Below, one piece after another: positions 10,368-17,685 of a stretch of 25,625 nt of DNA (position 1 is the stretch's first letter; each line of letters starts with the position of its first letter). The position numbers were made by a program, and so were the translations under genes. The stretch lies in the IMG/VR virus record IMGVR_UViG_2531839476_000020. One strand, 5' to 3'. Below the pieces are notes generated by a model. It was given only the letters and a program-made list of their open reading frames with translations. It was not told where the DNA came from and made no database searches. The DNA comes from a virus. Its lineage: Duplodnaviria > Heunggongvirae > Uroviricota > Caudoviricetes.

Positions 10368-10389
10368 TATTTATCGGAAAGCCGATAAA
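10368..10389. promoter_or_regulatory. operator-like palindrome between cro-like and cI-like genes
   Basis: TTTATCGG-AAAG-CCGATAAA perfect 8-bp inverted repeat in the divergent promoter region. Confidence 0.5.
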
Positions 10390-10421: not shown

Positions 10422-11114
10422 ATGACATTTTCAGAACGACTTGATTTAGCTATGCGCAACGCAAAATTTACGCAAGGTAGGCTGGCCAAAGAAGTGGGTA
10501 TGGCTCAGTCCAGTGTTAATCAACTACTTAACAAAGCCAACGGTTCCAGAAAAACAGTCGAAATAGCAAAAGTTTTGGGCGTTAACCCGGAATGGCTCGC
10601 ATCGGGTGTTGGCCCAATGGAAATCGTGACCTCTGCAGACTCACACCAAATACGTAACATTTCTGAAGATTGGGTTACTGATTCGTATGTCGTGGATGTT
10701 TTAGACATCAGATATAGTTGCGGACCTGGTAGTTATAACTCTGATTTTCCTGATATTGTCAGATCTATAGCGATAGAACCAGGATACGCATCAAGAGTTT
10801 TTGGCGGCAGACCAGCATCAGCAATCAAAGCAATAAACGCCCACGGCGACAGTATGAAAGGCACAATAGACCCTGAAGACTTGGTATTTGTAGATGTATC
10901 AGTTCGCACATTTAATGGTGATGGTATATACGCCTTTACATACTCTGGAACATCGCACATCAAAAGACTTCAAAAAATCAAAGATACTCTAACGGTGATA
11001 TCTGACAACCCAGCTTACAAGGATTGGGCTATCGAACCGGAAGACTTCGAACAACTTCACATTGACGGAAAAGTAATTGTCAGTTGGCCTATGACACTAC
11101 ACCGTTTTGCATAA
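10422..11114 (+). CDS. CI-type prophage repressor (N-terminal HTH + C-terminal S24/LexA-like peptidase)
   Basis: 230 aa; HTH LAKEVGMAQSSVNQLL; C-terminal GDSM serine motif and downstream Lys typical of autocleaving repressors; RBS GGAGG. Confidence 0.9.
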   Translation: MTFSERLDLAMRNAKFTQGRLAKEVGMAQSSVNQLLNKANGSRKTVEIAKVLGVNPEWLASGVGPMEIVTSADSHQIRNISEDWVTDSYVVDVLDIRYSCGPGSYNSDFPDIVRSIAIEPGYASRVFGGRPASAIKAINAHGDSMKGTIDPEDLVFVDVSVRTFNGDGIYAFTYSGTSHIKRLQKIKDTLTVISDNPAYKDWAIEPEDFEQLHIDGKVIVSWPMTLHRFA

Positions 11115-11132: not shown

Positions 11133-11158
11133 GCCCACTCTTAAGTGGGCTTTTTTTT
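11133..11158 (+). terminator. intrinsic terminator after the cI-like gene
   Basis: GCCCACT-CTTA-AGTGGGC hairpin followed by TTTTTTTT. Confidence 0.6.
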
Positions 11159-11179
11159 GGGAAAAAATCGATAAACCGA

Positions 11180-11208
11180 TTGACAGGTGAAATCGGTAAA
11201 CCTATTAT
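11180..11208 (+). promoter_or_regulatory. PL-like sigma70 promoter with flanking operator-type inverted repeat
   Basis: TTGACA (11180-11185), 17-nt spacer, TATTAT (11203-11208). ACCGAT ... ATCGGT arms bracket the -35 and share the CCGAT/ATCGG motif with the operator at 10368-10389. Confidence 0.55.
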
Positions 11209-12233: not shown

Positions 12234-12593
12234 ATGACACATGAACCCATTAATACATATCGTCGCCGTATAGCTGTTGCGGCACTCCATCGAATAAAAC
12301 GTAAAACAGGTGGTAATCTGCTTATTGTTGACCTTCCTGATGGGAACATTACGACCATAGAAATAACTGAACAGTTTATAAACCAGTTGCTGTTACGCTT
12401 CGAAGGTATTACCCGTGGTGAATTGGGCCGGGTGGAGGGTGAAACCGAAATCCACACTGCATACCAGAATGCTATCGGGATTAATCAACATACTGAATAC
12501 CTGACTGAAACCGGAAAGTTAATTATAGACAACCTTTTTCAAGAGATTATTGATTACGCGAAAGAAAAATATATCAGCGGAGGAATTAACTGA
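12234..12593 (+). CDS. hypothetical protein (119 aa)
   Basis: ORF coupled (ATGA overlap) to the downstream gene. Confidence 0.5.
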   Translation: MTHEPINTYRRRIAVAALHRIKRKTGGNLLIVDLPDGNITTIEITEQFINQLLLRFEGITRGELGRVEGETEIHTAYQNAIGINQHTEYLTETGKLIIDNLFQEIIDYAKEKYISGGIN

Positions 12594-12808
12594 TGGCTAA
12601 TTTATCCCCTGTATCTGTTGTGCACGAAAAAGTGCAGATCGTTATGACAATTGAAAATGGCCAAGTCACAGGTGTCTGCAAAGTCCGCGATGGCGAGCTG
12701 ATTGCCAGCATGGATACATTCATACGGCTGGCAGAAAGAGCGGGGTATCAGATAACAGCACCTGCTCAGGAGGAAACCGGTGGCATTAACAGCAACACGC
12801 ATTCCTGA
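12593..12808 (+). CDS. hypothetical protein (71 aa)
   Basis: RBS GGAGG; start overlaps the upstream stop. Confidence 0.5.
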   Translation: MANLSPVSVVHEKVQIVMTIENGQVTGVCKVRDGELIASMDTFIRLAERAGYQITAPAQEETGGINSNTHS

Positions 12809-12994
12809 GCGGATCCACCGGCAGGCATTGCAGGTCCTGTTGTTGTACCGATGCCGACGGATATTTCCGCATCGGATACAGCGCACCGGATATCTCAGTC
12901 TGAAGGTTAACCGTCGCTGGCGGCTGTTATCGAAAGACGACGGCCGGAACTGGGAAGTAATGAGTCATGAACGTTATTCGGGAGAAATAAAGAA

Positions 12995-13387
12995 ATGATC
13001 GACAACCGCACCGCCAGCACCATTGACCAGGCATTACAGAAACATGATACACCCGTCGGCCCGTTATTTTTTGTAACACGCCACGGAAGAACAAAAAAAT
13101 GCCTCACCCGAAAAACGGCAATTCGTTACCTGGCATTCTTTATGACCACCCGCGCTTTTGAACGTTCAGGATTCCGACAACGCTATCCTGACAAGCGTTT
13201 TATCTTCAACAGGAATGAGATATGGAAACGTGGAGAATCAACCACAGAGTATACCCGCGCACACCAGCGAACAATCAGACGACTGCGCAGACTCATCGCC
13301 AGGAAACAGTATACAGAAAAATGGTTCAGAAAATATGACACATGGAGCGCCGGATATTACGAACTGATGGCAACAAAACCATTCTGA
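12995..13387 (+). CDS. hypothetical highly basic protein (130 aa)
   Basis: RBS GGGAGA; Arg/Lys-rich, suggesting nucleic-acid binding. Confidence 0.5.
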   Translation: MIDNRTASTIDQALQKHDTPVGPLFFVTRHGRTKKCLTRKTAIRYLAFFMTTRAFERSGFRQRYPDKRFIFNRNEIWKRGESTTEYTRAHQRTIRRLRRLIARKQYTEKWFRKYDTWSAGYYELMATKPF

Positions 13388-13447
13388 CGTAAACGAAATT
13401 AACCATGACGCAATTAAATAAGGCAAGCCGAATACATCAGGAGGACC

Positions 13448-13636
13448 ATGAACATTTATTTCAGAATAGTTATATCACTGGCAATTATCACATGTATTTA
13501 CGGATTAATCGTTCCGGCCCTCATATCAATGAAGGATACGGTAGCAGTGATTTCTGGCTTTGCTCTGGCGTGTCTGACCCCGCCCTGCATTTATGCCATT
13601 TATAAGGGTCTTTCTTTTTCTAAGGATAAAAGATGA
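13448..13636 (+). CDS. small two-helix membrane protein (62 aa), coupled to the SPFH lipoprotein gene
   Basis: RBS AGGAGG; two hydrophobic segments (IVISLAIITCIYGLIVPALI and VISGFALACLTPPCIYAIY); stop overlaps the next start (ATGA). Confidence 0.55.
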   Translation: MNIYFRIVISLAIITCIYGLIVPALISMKDTVAVISGFALACLTPPCIYAIYKGLSFSKDKR

Positions 13637-14460
13637 AAAAATTACTTTTTGCTTTAGCCCTTGTTCTGCCGACCATTGGCCTTGTCGGTTGCGATCGCGT
13701 TGAGCCTGGTAATGTGGGCATCAAAGTAAACAAACTGGGCGACGATAAAGGCGTCGGTGAAGTGGTCGGTGTTGGGCGCTACTGGACGGGATGGAACACT
13801 GAGGTTTACATCTTCCCGACCTTTAAGCAGATGAAGACCTACGATGATCCATTCAGTTTCCAGATGAGTGACGGTACAACCATCGGCTATCACATCGGCG
13901 TGGCCTACAAAGTTGATCCATCCAAAGTTACCACAGTCTTTCAGACCTACCGCAAAGGCGTGGACGACATTACCGACACCGACCTGCGCCAGAAGATAGC
14001 CGACGCACTCAACCGACTGGCCAGCAAAATGACCACCGACAAATTTATCGACGGCGGCAAGTCTGAGCTGCTGGATGCAGCTCTTAAAGACATTCAGGAA
14101 GAAATGACGCCCATCGGTATTCAGGTAATGAGCCTCTCATATGTGGGTAAGCCGGAGTACCCACCTACTGTTATCGACAGCATTAATGCCAAAGTCACGG
14201 CGAACCAGAAAACCCTGCAACGCGAGCAGGAAGTAAAACAGCGCGAAGCGGAAGCCAACATGTTGCGCGCGGAAGCTGCCGGACAGGCAGATGCGATTCG
14301 CACAAAAGCCCAGGCCGAAGCCGATGCTATTCGTTTACGCGGTGAAGCTCTGCGCCAGAACCCCGGTGTTATGGAGCTGGAAGCCATCAACAAGTGGAAC
14401 GGTACACTGCCGCAATACATGACCAGCGGTGCCAACACACCATTTATTCAGGTTAAGTAA
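13633..14460 (+). CDS. SPFH/band-7 (prohibitin-like) domain lipoprotein
   Basis: Lipoprotein signal MKKLLFALALVLPTIGLVGC (lipobox LVGC); SPFH-like core and an Ala/Glu/Arg-rich coiled-coil tail QREQEVKQREAEANMLRAEAAGQADAIRTKAQAEADAIRLRGEALRQ. Confidence 0.75.
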   Translation: MKKLLFALALVLPTIGLVGCDRVEPGNVGIKVNKLGDDKGVGEVVGVGRYWTGWNTEVYIFPTFKQMKTYDDPFSFQMSDGTTIGYHIGVAYKVDPSKVTTVFQTYRKGVDDITDTDLRQKIADALNRLASKMTTDKFIDGGKSELLDAALKDIQEEMTPIGIQVMSLSYVGKPEYPPTVIDSINAKVTANQKTLQREQEVKQREAEANMLRAEAAGQADAIRTKAQAEADAIRLRGEALRQNPGVMELEAINKWNGTLPQYMTSGANTPFIQVK

Positions 14461-14503
14461 TACATATGCCCGGTATTACACGCCGGGCTGTCTGGAGATA
14501 AAA

Positions 14504-15253
14504 ATGAATATTGTAACCATCAACAACAAACAGTTTCCGGTAATCGAATATCGCGGTCAGCGTGTTGTGACATTTGCAATAATTGATGACGTCCACCAGC
14601 GCCCGGAAGGTACCGCCCGTGCTGCGTTTAACCGCAACCGTTCTCACTTTATCGAAGGGGTGGATTTTCTTGAAATGACTGCGGACGTAATACGTACGGA
14701 GTCACTTTCTGATGCCTTTGCCGCGCGAACTGCCAAAGGGATCATTCTTTTCGAGTCTGGTTACCTGATGTTGACGAAGCCTTTTAACGATGCTCTTGCA
14801 TGGCAGGTTCAGCGCGAACTGGTTAACAGCTATTTCCGAACTCACGCGCCGCTGACGGAAATGGAGATGATCGCTGCAATGGCCGCCGATGCCGTTCGCC
14901 AGCAGAAGCGCCTGAGTCATGTTGAAGAGAAGATCGAAACGGTCACCAAAGCTGTGGAGAACATCAAACGCGGCACAATGCGCACCGGATATGTCGGTTA
15001 CCGCCAGGTGGTAGCCAAAAGCGGAATGAGTGACGCCAAGTGTCGGAATCTGGTCAACGCCTACCACATCCCTACCGACACGCACGAATTTATGACTCCG
15101 GACGGTCTGTTGTCTCGCAGGGCTGTCGTCGAGCTTGAGACATTTATGGCGGCGTTCCACCAAATGATGTCAGAGGCTGAACCACGCGGCACACGCTGGT
15201 ATCACCCGAAGATGGGGCTTTTTCAGGTAATCGGATGGGAGGATAAAGCATGA
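14504..15253 (+). CDS. ORF6N/KilA-N domain protein (antirepressor-like)
   Basis: Start at MNIVTINNKQFPVIEYRGQRVVTFAIIDDVH (RBS GGAG); N-terminal domain typical of phage ORF6N/KilA-N DNA-binding modules. Confidence 0.65.
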   Translation: MNIVTINNKQFPVIEYRGQRVVTFAIIDDVHQRPEGTARAAFNRNRSHFIEGVDFLEMTADVIRTESLSDAFAARTAKGIILFESGYLMLTKPFNDALAWQVQRELVNSYFRTHAPLTEMEMIAAMAADAVRQQKRLSHVEEKIETVTKAVENIKRGTMRTGYVGYRQVVAKSGMSDAKCRNLVNAYHIPTDTHEFMTPDGLLSRRAVVELETFMAAFHQMMSEAEPRGTRWYHPKMGLFQVIGWEDKA

Positions 15254-15818
15254 TCATCCAGTCAAAACTTATTCGCGCCGCTCTGGTGTGCGCTGCTAAA
15301 AACGACGTTCGTTATTACCTGAACGGTCTTCACATCACGCCAAAACATATTGAGGCAACCAATGGTTTCGTAGCACTGCGCATGACTCACGGCATCCGGA
15401 CGAAGAAAAACATCATTGTCCAGTTCGAAGGTGGCGTCCCGGCCAAAGCCGAAACGACAGAGCTGATTTTTAGTAAAGAGCCGATCCTGTTCATCGCGAC
15501 CAGTTTCAGCGCCGGCTGTCCATTACCGGCATTAAATTGGTGGACGGTTGTTTTCCGGATTTGGAACGCATCATTCCGAAAAAATTTGACCTCTGTACAC
15601 ACCCGGTGATCCAGGCGGGTTACCTGAGTTATCCAGAGAAGATGTTTGGTCGTGAGCGTAAATTTATTCCCGTCCAGTTACGTTCCTCCGGTGACGGGCA
15701 AGCGGTCAGAATTCAGTTTGATTCCATCATCAACTCAATGTATGGCAATCCTGAATTTGTTGTGATGCCTTGTCGTGATCATGGCGATTTCAATGTGGCT
15801 CAGGAGCATCCGGAATGA
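15250..15818 (+). CDS. DnaN (beta sliding clamp) domain II-III-like protein, apparently split by a 1-nt frameshift near 15505-15512
   Basis: NDVRYYLNGLHI...ATNGFVALRM parallels DnaN QDVRYYLNGMLFE...TDGHRLA. The second frame ITGIKLVDGCFPDLERIIPKK parallels FTSKLVDGRFPDYRRVLPK, and the C-terminal EFVVMPCR parallels AYVVMPMR. Junction is at GCCGGCTGTCC. Confidence 0.5.
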
Positions 15819-15941: not shown

Positions 15942-16184
15942 ATGTTCGCTTTGATTCAACGCGGTCAGATATACACGGACAGAGCCGGATACCCCGTGGT
16001 GATTACTCGCATCACTGAGCACTCAGTGTTCTTTCGACGGATGGACGGACGATCCGGGCGGGTACGCATTGGTGAGTTAAACTGCCTGTTCGAACATATT
16101 GACCACCAGGAGTACCGCAAAATTCTCGCGGACACTGAGCAGGAAAAGCACCTGAAAAAATTACGAGCCATAAAAAGGAAGTAA
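15942..16184 (+). CDS. hypothetical protein (about 80 aa)
   Basis: Start moved to MFALIQRGQIYTD; sits in the xis-proximal region. Confidence 0.45.
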   Translation: MFALIQRGQIYTDRAGYPVVITRITEHSVFFRRMDGRSGRVRIGELNCLFEHIDHQEYRKILADTEQEKHLKKLRAIKRK

Positions 16185-16186
16185 AG

Positions 16187-16336
16187 AATGAATAAAGCAT
16201 TTGAACAATGGGTCCACCAGCGTTACGGCAATCGCTATGACCTGACGCGAGATGTTGACGGCTTCTACTGTCGTGAAGTTGTGAAGCGAATGTTTGACGT
16301 GTGGTGCCACTGCCGTGGGCTGAGTGTTATGTGAGG
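16187..16336 (+). CDS. hypothetical small Cys-rich protein (49 aa), below the ORF-track length cutoff
   Basis: ATG at 16187 with RBS AAGGAAG; MNKAFEQWVHQRYGNRYDLTRDVDGFYCREVVKRMFDVWCHCRGLSVM. Confidence 0.3.
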
Positions 16337-16342
16337 TGATGT

Positions 16343-16552
16343 ATGGGGCTGGATTGCGTGCCTATATCAACCTACTGCCGCGACGCGGGAGAAACGGTTG
16401 ATGCCGTTAACAAACGGATACAAAGAGGAATATGGAAAGAAGGGGTTCATGTATTAAAAGTCGACGGAGTTAAAGAACGCTGGGTCGACTTAATAGAGGT
16501 TTCAAAATGGGCAAGAAAGAACAAGGATTATTATCTCTGCCAAGAGGAGTAA
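16343..16552 (+). CDS. excisionase-like protein
   Basis: 69-aa ORF immediately upstream of, and overlapping, the integrase gene, as in xis-int pairs. Confidence 0.55.
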   Translation: MGLDCVPISTYCRDAGETVDAVNKRIQRGIWKEGVHVLKVDGVKERWVDLIEVSKWARKNKDYYLCQEE

Positions 16553-17685
16553 CTATTCGTAAGCATAAAACTGCTTCAACACTAGTTATCACTTTCACAT
16601 ATAAAGGGGTTCTTTGCAGGGAGCCCCTGTCTCGGCTTGAGGCAAATACACGTGGTATTAAATATGCTGAGCGCCTGCTAGGGGAGATACAAAATCAGAT
16701 CGCCAGCGGAACGTTTGAATATGCGAAATATTTCCCCAGTTCCAAAAAACTGGAGTTATTCGGTGTAGTAAAGAAAACCAAAAATATTAAGTCCTATCTT
16801 GATGAATACCTGAAAATTTGCATGAACCGCAATCTGTCGCCGTCAACCATTGGCGGTTACGAAAAATGTCTATCAGCACTATCAGAACTACATAAACTAC
16901 ATGTAACAGAATTGACGCCTGCGGTACTAAAAAATTGGATAGCCAGCCGAAAAACTAAGCTGAAAACAATCAGGAATAACCTGTCATTTCTGCGCAGCGC
17001 CATTGATGAGGCTGTAACTGATGGCCTGTTGACTATTAACCCGGTAACTCTTGTCAGCGCCAGCCGGTATCACGTGGTCGACAGTAAACCGAACGCCGAC
17101 GATTACGAAGTTGATCCGTTTGCGCCTGCGGAAACCAGTGCCATATATCAGCACTGCAAGTATCAGGAATGGCAGAATCTGTTCCGCTTCGCCTTCAATA
17201 CAGGGCTACGCAGCTCTGAGCTATGCGCATTACGTTGGACCGATATCGACTTTATAGGTAATACAGCGCACATACAGGCGGCCAGTGTCGTAGGGGTACT
17301 TAAAGGCACCAAGACAAAAGCCGGTACCCGTAAGGTGGAGCTGAACAGTGAGGCGCTGGCGGCCCTGCAGGCGCAGAAGCAATACACCTTTATGAAAAGT
17401 GAGTTCATATTCAGCGATCCGAAAACGGGAGATCCCTGGACGAACGCCGACGCTATCCGTAAAAAAGCATGGGTGCCGACCCTGAAAAAAGCTGGTGTGC
17501 GCTACCGTAACCCGTACCAGACGCGCCACACATTCGCCACCAGACACATTAGCCAGGGTGTAAACCTTTTCTGGCTTGCCGGGCAGATGGGGCATAAGGG
17601 GCCGGAAATGCTGTTCCGCAATTACGGTAAATACCTGGCTGAATACGACGGGAAAACCGCAATGGAATCTGGAATGAAGAAGTGA
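16507..17685 (+). CDS. tyrosine site-specific recombinase (lambdoid prophage integrase)
   Basis: 392 aa; the C-terminal region carries the conserved residues of the tyrosine recombinase catalytic set (Arg in FNTGLRSSEL, His-x-x-Arg in TRHTFATRH, His in MGHKG, Tyr in LFRNYGKYL); N-terminal arm-type DNA-binding region. Confidence 0.9.
   Translation: MGKKEQGLLSLPRGVTIRKHKTASTLVITFTYKGVLCREPLSRLEANTRGIKYAERLLGEIQNQIASGTFEYAKYFPSSKKLELFGVVKKTKNIKSYLDEYLKICMNRNLSPSTIGGYEKCLSALSELHKLHVTELTPAVLKNWIASRKTKLKTIRNNLSFLRSAIDEAVTDGLLTINPVTLVSASRYHVVDSKPNADDYEVDPFAPAETSAIYQHCKYQEWQNLFRFAFNTGLRSSELCALRWTDIDFIGNTAHIQAASVVGVLKGTKTKAGTRKVELNSEALAALQAQKQYTFMKSEFIFSDPKTGDPWTNADAIRKKAWVPTLKKAGVRYRNPYQTRHTFATRHISQGVNLFWLAGQMGHKGPEMLFRNYGKYLAEYDGKTAMESGMKK

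What the first reader, a model, noticed from the sequence alone, without database searches (positions are those of the whole stretch)
13448..14460. SPFH/band-7 lipoprotein with a coupled small membrane protein in the early-left operon
A lipobox-bearing SPFH protein with a long coiled-coil tail is translationally coupled (ATGA overlap) to an upstream 62-aa two-helix membrane protein, echoing SPFH/NfeD-type pairs. In a prophage early operon this could act in membrane remodelling, superinfection exclusion or as a membrane-acting abortive-infection module.
Basis: partly seen in the sequence, partly recalled or inferred. Interest (0 to 1): 0.5.

Follow-up and report, generated by a model that had tools for sequence, protein, structure and literature searches.

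The report
Phage membrane hairpin plus SPFH lipoprotein
The prophage carries a tightly coupled gene pair, a tiny two-helix inner-membrane protein and a lipid-anchored SPFH scaffold protein facing the periplasm; the same pair is conserved in hundreds of temperate and strictly lytic phages, and nobody has yet shown what it does.

Summary
A 62-aa two-helix membrane protein (13448-13636) overlaps by ATGA a 275-aa SPFH/Band_7 lipoprotein (13633-14460). The lipoprotein has lipobox LVGC, Asp at +2 and a 65-residue helix. The pair lies in an operator-flanked early-left operon of an E. coli lambdoid prophage.

The pair is more than a local curiosity. It is a discrete mosaic cassette and a deeply conserved module. 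The hairpin belongs to an unnamed family (no Pfam model, 942 clusters at 50% identity). Its outward loop carries the motif P-x-[LM]-[IV]-S-x-K-D-T. It sits directly upstream of SPFH lipoprotein genes in lambdoid, P2-like, P1-like, N4-like, rV5-like, jumbo, Aeromonas, Burkholderia, Ochrobactrum and crAss-like phages. In-frame fusions of the two genes occur naturally. The hairpin is not an NfeD protein, and the SPFH protein is not an HflK or HflC orthologue.

The best reading is a phage-made, roughly 1:1 hairpin/SPFH cage on the periplasmic face of the inner membrane, built early in lytic growth. Its client and physiological effect are unknown. Presence in virulent phages and a predicted repressor-controlled promoter argue against a lysogen-protecting abortive-infection or conversion role. 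Interest is moderate: a new variant of SPFH-partner systems.

The parts
11133..11150 (+). Terminator-like hairpin plus T-run just after the repressor gene. It separates repressor transcription from the early-left operon.
   Evidence: 7-bp stem, 5 G-C pairs, TTTTTTTT tail; gene order.
11166..11208 (+). pL-like promoter (TTGACA-17-TATTAT, 11180-11208). It is overlapped by operator-like half-sites (AATCGATAAACCGATT / AATCGGTAAACCTATT) that resemble the palindrome TTTATCGGAAAGCCGATAAA at 10370-10389 in the divergent PR/PRM region. This is the presumed start of the operon that contains the pair.
   Evidence: repeat D3, inverted repeat I1. Repressor control is inferred, not shown.
13439..13444 (+). 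Shine-Dalgarno AGGAGG of the hairpin gene.
   Evidence: Read directly from the sequence.
13448..13636 (+). Hairpin gene. It encodes a 62-aa inner-membrane protein: TM1 at about aa 4-26, conserved outward loop S27-M-K-D-T31 preceded by P23-x-L-I, TM2 at about aa 32-53 with conserved G37, and a basic cytoplasmic tail at aa 54-62.
   Evidence: topology. (PHROG 1130, E 1.5e-23). (conserved motif). (intact in 80/80 loci, dN/dS 0.13-0.45). (942 family clusters). (no Pfam or PDB relative).
13622..13636 (+). Coupling junction: AAGGA (13622-13626), then ATGA (13633-13636), where the hairpin stop TGA overlaps the SPFH start ATG.
   Evidence: The same 4-nt overlap is present in 80/80 close loci and in KpCHEMY26, Fraca, P88, ORM_20 and phiE125.
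13633..13692 (+). Lipoprotein signal peptide of the SPFH protein: MKK n-region, hydrophobic core, lipobox L17-V18-G19-C20. The next residue is Asp21 (+2), the E. coli inner-membrane retention signal, followed by Arg.
   Evidence: C20 invariant in A3. (Asp at +2 in 196 of 325 distinct homologues, a biased sample). Lipidation and sorting were not tested.
13696..14256 (+). SPFH/Band_7 domain (aa 22-208).
   Evidence: PF01145, E 8e-31. (AF2 model, pLDDT 81-95 over the domain). (Foldseek hits to HflK/C, erlin, prohibitin, stomatin, flotillin and QmcA).
14164..14358 (+). Long Ala/Glu/Gln-rich helix (aa 178-242). It is equivalent to the wall-forming coiled-coil helix of SPFH cages.
   Evidence: H178-242. 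(full-length alignments of 239-306 columns to the top 17 cage-subunit chains).
14392..14460 (+). C-terminal segment. It carries the family signature K254-W255-x-G257-x-L-P260 and a low-confidence tail, which is the candidate cap-forming region.
   Evidence: W255 and P260 at least 90% conserved, G257 invariant across 16 diverse phages. (pLDDT below 60, as expected for a segment that folds only in an oligomer; this reading is inference).

Best explanation
The two genes encode the two subunits of a phage-built membrane scaffold.

Proposed assembly:
- The SPFH protein is exported and lipid-modified at Cys20. It is retained on the periplasmic face of the inner membrane by Asp at +2, or, in clades that lost the Cys, by an uncleaved signal anchor. 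It then oligomerises through its long helix and C-terminal KWxGxLP segment into a dome, like HflK/C, stomatin or erlin.
- The 62-aa hairpin is made in roughly equal amounts through translational coupling. It inserts N-in/C-in and presents its conserved loop (P-x-L-I-S-x-K-D-T) to the membrane-proximal side of the SPFH ring. It thereby supplies the transmembrane part of the assembly, playing the part that NfeD helices play for QmcA without being an NfeD protein.

Timing: the module is transcribed with the early lytic programme (early-left operon here, early or middle regions in virulent phages), not from the lysogen.

Likely effect: it fences off a patch of inner membrane during infection. It either keeps the membrane intact and energised or captures a conserved host inner-membrane client until lysis.

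What is shown: gene structure, family membership, fold, conservation of the pair, fusions, and mosaic behaviour.
What is inferred: lipidation, inner-membrane location, hetero-oligomeric cage, 1:1 stoichiometry, timing, and the physiological effect. The last is the weakest step.
For: 1. SPFH identity and cage-subunit architecture.
- Pfam Band_7 E 8e-31.
- AF2 model with mean pLDDT 81.
- Foldseek full-length matches to erlin1/2, HflK, HflC, prohibitin, stomatin, flotillin and QmcA, E 5e-13 to 5.5e-8.
- These proteins all form domes that abut membranes (PMC12624060, PMC12048511).

2. Periplasmic, membrane-anchored orientation.
- Lipobox with a conserved Cys.
- Relatives with an uncleavable anchor instead of the Cys: the IIGY clade, and the Staphylococcus and halovirus versions.
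- Asp at +2.

3. The partner relationship.
- ATGA coupling is kept in 80/80 close loci.
- A hairpin-family HMM finds a same-strand upstream partner in 271 of 292 viral loci and in 11 of 19 SPFH clusters at 70% identity. An iterated model and inspection add phiEaP8, PaCe, ST-3, the L120 group and L277.
- 4 of 4 distant hairpin homologues looked up from the hairpin side are followed by a Band_7 gene.
- A natural in-frame hairpin-SPFH fusion occurs in two independent assemblies. Its order (TM1, loop, TM2, basic linker, signal peptide, SPFH) fits the proposed topology.
- The best-conserved hairpin positions (P23, S27, D30, T31, G37) lie in or beside the outward loop, the side where the SPFH domain sits.

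4. Exchange as a unit. Homology to the window begins at 13414-13457 in 57 of 85 loci and ends at 14473 in 60 of 85.

5. Lytic-cycle role.
- The pair occurs in virulent Schitoviridae, Vequintavirinae, jumbo and crAss-like phages.
- The protein was detected in a lytic Vi01-like preparation.
- Operator-like sites overlap the operon promoter.

6. A conserved target. The SPFH gene is under very strong purifying selection (dN/dS 0.02-0.06).
Against: - No experiment addresses the pair. The open literature I could search offers only speculation: 'remains unclear' in PMC13239085, plus PMC7150955 and PMC10269572.
- Oligomerisation, the hairpin-SPFH contact and stoichiometry could not be modelled with the tools available, which predict monomers only.
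- Asp at +2 is followed by Arg, which from my own knowledge may weaken Lol avoidance.
- Asp at +2 is not conserved family-wide (Glu, Asn, Ser, Gly or Arg in other clades). Some members might therefore go to the outer membrane, out of reach of a 5-residue loop.
- P88-type hairpins share only about 17% identity with the window's hairpin yet pair with a 93%-identical mature SPFH. Any contact must rest on a few loop residues or be loose.
- In Pseudomonas PaCe and Salmonella ST-3 the hairpin-like gene lies about 420 nt upstream, not adjacent.
- phiCbK, Kayvirus and haloviruses have different neighbours or none.
- The promoter and operator assignment is pattern-based only.
Confidence: 0.45

Rival explanations
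1. HflK/C mimic. The phage SPFH cage captures host FtsH or displaces HflK/C. This changes FtsH proteolysis of phage regulators (CII/CIII-type, Xis) or of membrane proteins, biasing the lysis-lysogeny decision or stabilising phage proteins.
For: - Among characterised proteins, the nearest sequence relatives are HflC and HflK (NCBIfam E 5.6e-6 and 3.4e-5; PDB phmmer best hit HflK, E 2e-4).
- The orientation matches HflK/C, which surrounds FtsH in the periplasm (PMC12048511).
- The gene sits among pL-operon accessory genes, the operon in which lambda carries its FtsH inhibitor cIII (my own knowledge).
- Very strong purifying selection fits a conserved host target.
- Several authors have speculated along these lines (PMC4936722, PMC10269572; the Gekk3-15 annotation).
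Against: - Scores are far below the HflK/HflC equivalog cut-offs (25 bits against 134, 23 against 159).
- Foldseek ranks erlin and prohibitin level with HflK.
- There is one SPFH gene, not a K/C pair.
- The module is common in virulent phages, which make no lysogeny decision.
- Related genes occur in haloarchaeal viruses, whose hosts lack FtsH as far as I know.
- No FtsH-contact residues could be tested.
Confidence: 0.17
2. Superinfection exclusion during lytic growth. The periplasm-facing cage blocks DNA entry or the membrane-penetration machinery of secondary phages, in the manner of T4 Imm/Sp or the Ltp lipoprotein.
For: - Early expression, an inner-membrane hairpin plus a periplasmic partner, and a position among accessory genes next to the lysogeny module.
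- Known exclusion proteins are small membrane proteins or lipoproteins acting on the periplasmic face (my own knowledge).
- One paper guesses at a role in adsorption or DNA entry (PMC13239085).
Against: - No similarity to any PADLOC model, and no PHROG exclusion family among the hits.
- Exclusion genes are usually lineage-specific and fast-evolving. This SPFH protein is conserved from enterobacterial to Bacteroidota phages, with dN/dS around 0.03.
- The operon is predicted to be off in the lysogen.
Confidence: 0.15
3. Lysis-timing control. The hairpin is holin-like or antiholin-like and the SPFH cage restrains or organises holin rafts or secreted lysis enzymes.
For: - The hairpin has class II holin-like features: about 60-70 aa, two TM helices, N-in/C-in, basic tail.
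- In Kayvirus the SPFH gene mbpS and its membrane partner mbpV lie between lysK and tgl. The authors noted that MbpV resembles holins and suggested MbpS aids Tgl export (PMC7150955).
- In crAss-like cr126_1 the module sits directly upstream of a 2-TM protein and a signal-anchored peptidoglycan hydrolase.
Against: - In this prophage and in the enterobacterial, Aeromonas, Burkholderia and N4-like phages, the pair is far from the lysis cassette and among early or middle genes.
- The prophage has its own class II holin, lysozyme and spanin-type lysis genes.
- No holin Pfam family matches consistently: 1 of 38 members, at E 0.058.
Confidence: 0.1
4. Lysogen-benefit module: abortive infection, defence, or lysogenic conversion and virulence. 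The last would resemble the prophage SPFH protein PM0222 of Pasteurella multocida, which is released in outer-membrane vesicles and stimulates TLR1/2.
For: - The pair is a compact mosaic cassette, like a moron.
- PHROG files the hairpin under 'moron, auxiliary metabolic gene and host takeover'.
- A prophage-encoded HflK/C-like protein is a reported virulence factor (PMC9872710).
- About 10% of complete E. coli genomes carry a match.
Against: - The same module is present in many obligately lytic phages.
- There is no own promoter-like or terminator-like site, and it lies inside an operator-flanked early operon.
- No PADLOC hit.
- Homology to PM0222 was not tested, because I had no sequence for it.
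Confidence: 0.06
5. Virion or assembly component.
For: Three spectra of the SPFH lipoprotein homologue were found in CsCl-purified Vi01-like virions.
Against: - The authors of that study say low counts may be contaminants.
- The protein has an export signal and lipobox, whereas tailed-phage virions assemble in the cytoplasm.
- The gene lies in early or accessory regions, never in structural modules, in the loci inspected.
Confidence: 0.02

Closest known systems
HflK/HflC of E. coli (SPFH cage around FtsH)
   Same: - SPFH domain, long helix and C-terminal cap segment.
- N-terminal membrane anchor followed immediately by the SPFH domain.
- The domain faces the periplasm from the inner membrane.
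- HflK and HflC are the best sequence hits among characterised proteins.
   Different: - 16-20% identity, and scores far below the equivalog cut-offs.
- A single gene, so a presumed homo-oligomer rather than a K/C heteromer.
- Lipid anchor instead of a transmembrane helix.
- The partner is a 62-aa hairpin, and no FtsH link has been shown.
- Phage-encoded.
SPFH-NfeD operons (for example QmcA/YbbK-YbbJ, PDB 8z5g; archaeal stomatin-STOPP)
   Same: - A small membrane protein is co-transcribed with an SPFH scaffold.
- QmcA-YbbJ forms a cage of 26 heterodimers, so the partner is a stoichiometric structural subunit (PMC13086221).
- QmcA is a Foldseek hit, E 5.5e-8.
- Here, coupling and natural fusions also point to roughly 1:1 production.
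   Different: - The hairpin has no NfeD OB-fold domain and no NfeD Pfam match in any of 38 members.
- The hairpin gene lies upstream of the SPFH gene in all pairs seen here.
- The cage would face the periplasm, not the cytoplasm.
- The SPFH subunit is a lipoprotein.
Kayvirus MbpV-MbpS pair (Staphylococcus phages K, A5W, MSA6)
   Same: - Phage-encoded SPFH protein (25% identical over 93% of the query).
- A small membrane-protein gene lies immediately upstream and overlaps it by 1 nt.
- Function is likewise unknown (PMC7150955).
   Different: - MbpS has an N-terminal transmembrane anchor and no lipobox.
- MbpV is a 102-aa single-pass protein with a long charged tail and is not matched by the hairpin HMM.
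- The pair is located in the lysis region.
Phage exclusion pairs such as T4 Imm/Sp and the lipoprotein Ltp of TP-J34
   Same: Early-expressed small inner-membrane proteins, or periplasmic and lipid-anchored proteins, acting at the outer face of the cytoplasmic membrane (my own knowledge).
   Different: - No sequence or fold relationship.
- Those proteins are not SPFH scaffolds and are narrowly distributed.
- No exclusion phenotype is known for this pair.

Membership tests
SPFH / Band_7 superfamily (PF01145) | Sequence match to the Band_7 model above Pfam's gathering score | tested here: met
   E 8e-31, 107.9 bits against a cut-off of 23.6; residues 22-208 cover profile positions 2-176 of 176.
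SPFH / Band_7 superfamily (PF01145) | Alpha/beta SPFH fold followed by a long helix, as in cage-forming members | tested here: met
   AF2 model with pLDDT 81, strands at 17-94 and 163-175, helix 178-242. Foldseek probability 1.00 to erlin, HflK/C, prohibitin, stomatin, flotillin and QmcA over 239-306 columns.
SPFH / Band_7 superfamily (PF01145) | Assembly into a large ring or dome on a membrane | not testable with these tools
   Only monomer prediction was available. Needs cryo-EM, BN-PAGE or multimer modelling.
HflK / HflC (FtsH modulators) | Score above the NCBIfam equivalog cut-off for HflK or HflC | tested here: not met
   hflC TIGR01932 scores 25.4 bits against 134.4. hflK TIGR01933 scores 23.4 against 159.4.
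HflK / HflC (FtsH modulators) | Two paralogous SPFH subunits encoded together | tested here: not met
   There is one SPFH gene. Its upstream partner is a 62-aa hairpin.
HflK / HflC (FtsH modulators) | Binding and regulation of FtsH | not testable with these tools
   Requires co-purification or substrate-stability assays.
SPFH-NfeD operon partner (NfeD, PF01957) | Partner carries the NfeD C-terminal OB-fold domain | tested here: not met
   No Pfam hit at E up to 0.1 for the window protein. None of 38 family members matches NfeD at E up to 1. A 62-aa protein with two TM helices leaves no room for the domain.
SPFH-NfeD operon partner (NfeD, PF01957) | Membrane-embedded partner gene adjacent to and co-transcribed with the SPFH gene | tested here: met
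   ATGA overlap. Adjacency is conserved across phage lineages.
Bacterial lipoprotein (signal peptidase II substrate) | n-region, hydrophobic core and lipobox [LVI][ASTVI][GAS]C | tested here: met
   MKK-LLFALALVLPTIG-LVGC. The Cys is invariant in alignment A3 and at least 90% conserved in A1.
Bacterial lipoprotein (signal peptidase II substrate) | Actual lipidation, and inner-membrane retention through Asp at +2 | not testable with these tools
   Asp21 is present. Sorting needs fractionation. Arg at +3 may weaken retention (my own knowledge).
Class II holins | Small two-TM, N-in/C-in protein with a charged C-terminus | tested here: met
   This is topology only, a feature shared by many unrelated small proteins.
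Class II holins | Encoded in the lysis cassette next to the endolysin; match to a holin family | tested here: not met
   The prophage's lysis cassette is more than 11 kb away and has its own holin. There is no consistent holin Pfam match.
Known anti-phage defence or exclusion systems (PADLOC-DB 2.0) | Match of either protein to a defence-system model | tested here: not met
   0 families for both proteins at E up to 0.1.
PHROG 200 (SPFH 'lipoprotein') and PHROG 1130 ('membrane protein') | Profile match to the phage orthologous groups | tested here: met
   PHROG 200 at E 9.7e-115 and PHROG 1130 at E 1.5e-23. Neither group has a tested function.

The most novel reading that the evidence does not exclude
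The hairpin/SPFH-lipoprotein pair may be a previously unrecognised, near-universal host-takeover device of phages of Gram-negative bacteria. It would be a phage-assembled periplasmic cage, with a new minimal class of SPFH partner (a 60-75-aa hairpin). The cage would sequester a conserved inner-membrane machine such as FtsH, or insulate the infected cell's membrane against depolarising defences and premature lysis. This would give a first physiological role for viral SPFH proteins and a compact two-protein model for how SPFH cages are anchored and loaded.
Probability: 0.25. Interest if true: 0.75.

Novelty: new variant of a known kind. Interest (0 to 1): 0.5.

Why it matters
SPFH scaffolds (HflK/C, stomatin, prohibitin, flotillin, erlin) are found in all domains of life. 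Recent cryo-EM work shows them as membrane cages, yet what most bacterial members do remains unclear.

- Phage genomes carry SPFH genes very often: 780 of 50,697 phage records match this one. A 2026 paper still states that the reason is unclear.
- This work shows that the phage lipoprotein version comes with a dedicated, conserved hairpin partner. The family is unnamed, has 942 clusters at 50% identity, and has no Pfam model.
- The pair travels as a unit between lambdoid, P1-like, P2-like, N4-like, rV5-like, jumbo and crAss-like phages.
- That makes it a small, genetically tractable system: two genes of about 1 kb, present in E. coli prophages and in easily manipulated lytic phages.
- It can be used to ask how an SPFH cage is anchored, what it encloses, and why viruses need one.
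- If the client proves to be FtsH, or if the role is membrane protection, the finding would bear on the lysis-lysogeny decision, on phage counter-defence, and on the engineering of therapeutic phages.

Tried and rejected
- The 16-sequence SPFH alignment A1 was too divergent for the search for related loci. I replaced it with A3 and with single distant queries.
- My first upstream-ORF script picked the longest ORF, which was the alternative-frame ORF 13405-13605. I corrected it by fixing the frame to the ATGA stop. That alternative ORF varies non-conservatively between loci and has no family support, so I treat it as spurious.
- Profile searches with A1 in the 5.8-billion-protein set returned almost only close relatives. 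The AF2 alignment therefore stayed shallow (66-95% identity), although the model was still usable.
- Single-sequence AF2 of the natural fusion P0002 was poor (pLDDT 49) and says nothing about a hairpin-SPFH contact.
- Profile searches of the hairpin family against PDB and Pfam found nothing meaningful.
- Eight literature searches found no functional study of a phage SPFH protein or of the pair (SPFH with prophage, anti-phage, bacteriophage/lipoprotein, phage-encoded, or holin; band 7 with exclusion; two searches on HflK and QmcA structures). They found only annotation-level speculation.
- I recalled that phage P1 has genes named upl and plp that might be this pair. I could not verify it: reference P1 was not among the hits, only P1-like phages such as RCS47. 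I make no claim.
- Considered and rejected as membership: NfeD partner, holin, HflK/HflC orthologue, PADLOC defence system, virion protein. Reasons are in the membership table.
Full report
CONTEXT

The window is a lambdoid prophage of E. coli. The 1.3 kb around the finding is 99.9% identical to the E110019 chromosome.

- The annotation of that region and the window's ORF map agree.
- One arm reads leftwards: lysis genes, a Q-type antiterminator, and replication genes (helicase, toprim).
- The other arm starts with a LexA-family repressor at 10422-11114 (+). A run of small + strand genes follows and ends at the integrase (16507-17685).
- Just after the repressor gene there is a terminator-like hairpin (11133-11150).
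- Next comes the best promoter-like site of the region (TTGACA-17-TATTAT, 11180-11208, 11 of 12 positions).
- That promoter is overlapped by two half-sites (CGATAAAC and CGGTAAAC). They resemble the palindrome TTTATCGGAAAGCCGATAAA between the divergent repressor and cro-like genes.
- I therefore read the + strand genes from about 11250 onwards as a repressor-controlled early-left operon. This is inference from sequence patterns.
- No promoter-like or terminator-like site on the + strand flanks the pair itself.

The hairpin gene:
- ORF 13448-13636 encodes 62 aa (MNIYFRIVISLAIITCIYGLIVPALISMKDTVAVISGFALACLTPPCIYAIYKGLSFSKDKR), preceded by AGGAGG.
- It has two hydrophobic segments, a short loop (SMKDT) and a basic tail.
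- In a 38-member family alignment the mean K+R count is 0.97 in the N-tail, 0.58 in the loop and 3.58 in the C-tail. By the positive-inside rule this gives N-in/C-in with the loop outside.

The SPFH gene:
- ORF 13633-14460 encodes 275 aa. Its ATG overlaps the upstream TGA (ATGA), and an AAGGA lies 6 nt upstream.
- It matches Pfam Band_7 at E 8e-31.
- It starts MKKLLFALALVLPTIGLVGC|DR, a canonical lipoprotein signal with lipobox LVGC. The SPFH domain begins about two residues after the Cys.
- An AlphaFold2 model (26-sequence alignment, mean pLDDT 81) shows the SPFH domain, one continuous helix at 178-242, a short helix at 244-254, and a low-confidence C-terminus.

BOTH GENES ARE REAL AND UNDER SELECTION

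- All 80 close loci retrieved from IMG/VR keep a 189-nt ORF in this frame with the ATGA overlap.
- Nei-Gojobori dN/dS against the window is 0.13-0.45 for the hairpin gene and 0.02-0.06 for the SPFH gene.
- The hairpin matches PHROG 1130 ('membrane protein', E 1.5e-23). The SPFH protein matches PHROG 200 ('lipoprotein', E 1e-114).

THE PAIR MOVES AS A UNIT

- Megablast to phage phiP27 covers window 13444-14489. Megablast to Stx2-converting phages covers 13445-14460, that is, exactly the two genes.
- In a blastn comparison with 85 loci, homology to the window starts at 13414-13457 in 57 loci and ends at 14473 in 60.
- Three loci (P88 type) break at 13681-13687, inside the signal peptide. They combine a different hairpin (about 17% identical) with a mature SPFH protein that is 93% identical.
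- About 10% of complete E. coli genomes carry a match (543 of 5426).
- The plasmid hits are non-mobilizable replicons of 86-102 kb, which are P1-like phage-plasmids.

THE PAIR IS CONSERVED FAR BEYOND LAMBDOID PROPHAGES

This was the main new result.

The SPFH protein:
- tblastn finds it in 780 of 50,697 phage records.
- These include obligately lytic groups: Schitoviridae, Vequintavirinae, Ounavirinae, jumbo phages, Bruynoghevirus, Kayvirus, phiCbK-like and crAss-like phages, and Lak megaphages. Haloarchaeal viruses are also included.

Individual records with a small two-TM gene immediately upstream, usually overlapping by 1-4 nt:
- Klebsiella N4-like KpCHEMY26 (gp28/gp29).
- Temperate Fraca and P2-like P88.
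- Aeromonas Gekk3-15, Ochrobactrum ORM_20 and Burkholderia phiE125 (gp44/gp43).
- Jumbo phage SE_PL and crAss-like cr126_1.
- Cronobacter GAP31, with one extra small gene in between.

These small proteins are homologous. They share TM1, the motif P-x-[LM]-[IV]-S-x-[K]-[D/N/S]-[T/S], and TM2 with a conserved Gly.

Systematic counts:
- An HMM built from ten of them finds a same-strand upstream partner in 271 of 292 viral loci, and in 11 of 19 SPFH clusters at 70% identity.
- One round of iteration adds an unannotated ORF in Erwinia phiEaP8 (E 2e-15).
- It also adds more distant copies about 420 nt upstream in Pseudomonas PaCe (E 7e-5) and Salmonella ST-3 (E 0.003).
- Two further groups (L120, L277) have an unmatched but similar two-TM ORF directly upstream.
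- The exceptions are phiCbK (a 3-TM neighbour), Kayvirus (single-pass MbpV) and haloviruses (none).

From the hairpin side:
- A profile search of 1.84 billion representatives finds 942 clusters at E up to 0.001, all 45-91 aa.
- None carries a Pfam domain or a name other than 'hypothetical' or 'membrane protein'.
- 4 of 4 distant members that I looked up are followed by a Band_7 gene.

Natural fusion:
- P0002 (347 aa) is an in-frame fusion seen in two independent assemblies.
- It reads hairpin TM1, loop, TM2, basic linker, signal peptide with lipobox, then SPFH.
- That order is exactly what the predicted topologies require.

WHAT THE SPFH PROTEIN RESEMBLES

- Foldseek against the PDB gives full-length matches to subunits of every solved SPFH cage. 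These are erlin1/2, HflK, HflC, prohibitin, stomatin, flotillin and QmcA from the QmcA-YbbJ complex. The related vault shoulder also matches.
- The E-values run from 5e-13 to about 1e-7, at 13-20% identity.
- By sequence, the nearest characterised proteins are HflC and HflK, but far below the equivalog cut-offs.
- The family has its own C-terminal signature, K-W-x-G-x-L-P.
- Published structures show that such proteins form domes abutting a membrane. HflK/C does so on the periplasmic side of the E. coli inner membrane around FtsH (PMC12048511, PMC12624060).
- QmcA(YbbK)-YbbJ is a cage of 26 SPFH-NfeD heterodimers on the cytoplasmic side (PMC13086221).

LOCALISATION ARGUMENT (inference)

- Asp at +2 is the E. 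coli Lol-avoidance signal (established knowledge). It is present here and in most close relatives.
- One enterobacterial phage-plasmid clade has replaced the lipobox Cys by Tyr (IIGY). The Staphylococcus and halovirus versions have plain transmembrane anchors. Such variants would stay in the cytoplasmic membrane.
- Together with a partner whose outward loop is only about five residues long, this favours the inner membrane.
- Against this, other clades have Glu, Asn, Ser, Gly or Arg at +2, and the Arg at +3 here may weaken retention.

MECHANISM I CONSIDER MOST LIKELY (confidence about 0.45 for the assembly model, much less for the physiological output)

- The lipid-anchored SPFH protein forms an HflK/C-like dome on the periplasmic face of the inner membrane.
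- The hairpin is made in matching amounts by translational coupling. It is a stoichiometric transmembrane subunit whose conserved loop meets the base of the SPFH ring. In this it is functionally analogous to the NfeD partner of QmcA, but unrelated to it.
- The module is made early in lytic development.
- The SPFH gene is under extreme purifying selection. The module spans hosts from Enterobacteria to Bacteroidota and occurs in lytic phages.
- I therefore think it acts on something conserved: the membrane itself, or a conserved inner-membrane machine. A particular competing phage is a less likely target.

RIVALS THAT SPECIFY THE OUTPUT

- FtsH/HflKC mimicry (0.17).
- Exclusion of superinfecting phages during lytic growth (0.15).
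- Control of lysis timing (0.10), hinted at by the position next to lysis genes in Kayvirus and a crAss-like phage (PMC7150955).
- A lysogen-benefit, Abi or virulence role (0.06). The lytic-phage distribution, the absence of PADLOC hits and the operon context all count against it.
- A virion role is essentially excluded. Only three spectra were found in one proteome, which its authors flag as possible contamination, and the protein is exported.

COMPARISON WITH WHAT IS KNOWN

- The SPFH protein is a bona fide member of the Band_7 superfamily and of PHROG 200.
- It is not an HflK or HflC orthologue.
- The hairpin is not an NfeD protein, not a recognisable holin, and has no solved or curated relative.
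- In the literature I could search, phage SPFH genes are mentioned only in genome descriptions with guesses. The guesses are lysogeny control through HflC (PMC4936722, PMC10269572) and Sec-dependent export (PMC7150955). A third is adsorption or DNA entry, with the comment that the reason 'remains unclear' (PMC13239085).
- One prophage SPFH protein of Pasteurella is reported as a virulence factor in outer-membrane vesicles (PMC9872710). Its relation to this family was not tested.
- I found no description of the conserved hairpin partner or of the pair as a module. The library does not cover subscription journals, so this is absence of evidence only.

VERDICT

- Observation: confirmed.
- Interpretation: partly supported.
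- The feature is a new variant of SPFH-plus-partner systems. It is periplasmic and lipid-anchored, has a novel minimal hairpin partner, is phage-borne and widespread, and has no known function.
- Interest: 0.5.

Noticed in passing
P0002 (347 aa); locus L295 4001-5044 and L296 64-1107: A natural in-frame fusion of a P88-type hairpin with the SPFH lipoprotein, in a 94-kb P1-like contig and in an independent Logan assembly. The signal peptide and lipobox become an internal third hydrophobic segment.
   Followed up: partly
window 13681-13687 (inside the SPFH signal peptide): A recurrent recombination breakpoint. P88-type and P1-like loci share the mature SPFH sequence with the window but carry a different hairpin gene and signal peptide. 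The hairpin and signal peptide therefore behave as one exchangeable sub-module.
   Followed up: partly
P0107-P0120 (276-aa SPFH proteins on contigs of about 110 kb): This clade has Tyr in place of the lipobox Cys (…TMGIIGY|DRVEPG…). Single clusters with Trp or Phe at that position also exist. These versions cannot be lipidated at that site and would keep an uncleaved anchor.
   Followed up: no
window 13405-13605 (+), alternative frame: A 66-aa ORF overlaps the hairpin gene in another frame. It changes non-conservatively between close loci and has no family match, so it is probably not a gene.
   Followed up: partly
window 12780-12998 (+): RefSeq annotates this small ORF, which matches PHROG 1525, as a 'ParE family toxin-like protein'. 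It overlaps the end of the preceding 71-aa ORF (12593-12808). No antitoxin partner was examined.
   Followed up: no
window about 14504-15253 (+): The gene immediately downstream of the pair is an ORF6N-domain protein with strong PHROG anti-repressor matches. The same neighbour follows the pair in phage Fraca, so the cassette sometimes travels with it.
   Followed up: no
window about 15250-15818 (+): Two overlapping ORFs (119 aa and 93 aa) correspond to a CDS that RefSeq marks as frameshifted in strain E110019. This is a likely pseudogene in the early-left operon.
   Followed up: no
L001 16734-17947 compared with window about 16030-16500: Strain E110019 has an IS3-family element inserted between the early-left genes and the integrase. 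The window lacks it, and its integrase lies about 1.3 kb closer. The window therefore comes from a different strain with the same prophage.
   Followed up: no
L295 5729-6304 and L301 4517-5101: Tad2-like (PF11195, anti-Thoeris sponge family) genes lie 0.7-1.8 kb downstream of the hairpin-SPFH pair in two unrelated contigs. This hints that the pair sits in accessory or counter-defence regions. The evidence is anecdotal.
   Followed up: no
L016 2316-3148 (crAss-like phage cr126_1): Directly downstream of the pair lie a 121-aa two-TM protein and a peptidoglycan hydrolase with an N-terminal hydrophobic anchor. This is a probable lysis cassette adjacent to the module.
   Followed up: partly
L007 1277-1516 (Erwinia phage phiEaP8): An unannotated hairpin-family ORF (HMM E 1.8e-15) lies upstream of and overlaps the annotated SPFH lipoprotein gene. 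The start of that gene is probably called too far upstream. Small partners are likely under-annotated in many phage records, as in phiP27 and the Stx2 phages.
   Followed up: partly
window 10370-10389 and 11166-11206: Candidate repressor operators: the palindrome TTTATCGGAAAGCCGATAAA between the repressor and cro-like genes, and related half-sites over the −35 element and spacer of the pL-like promoter.
   Followed up: partly
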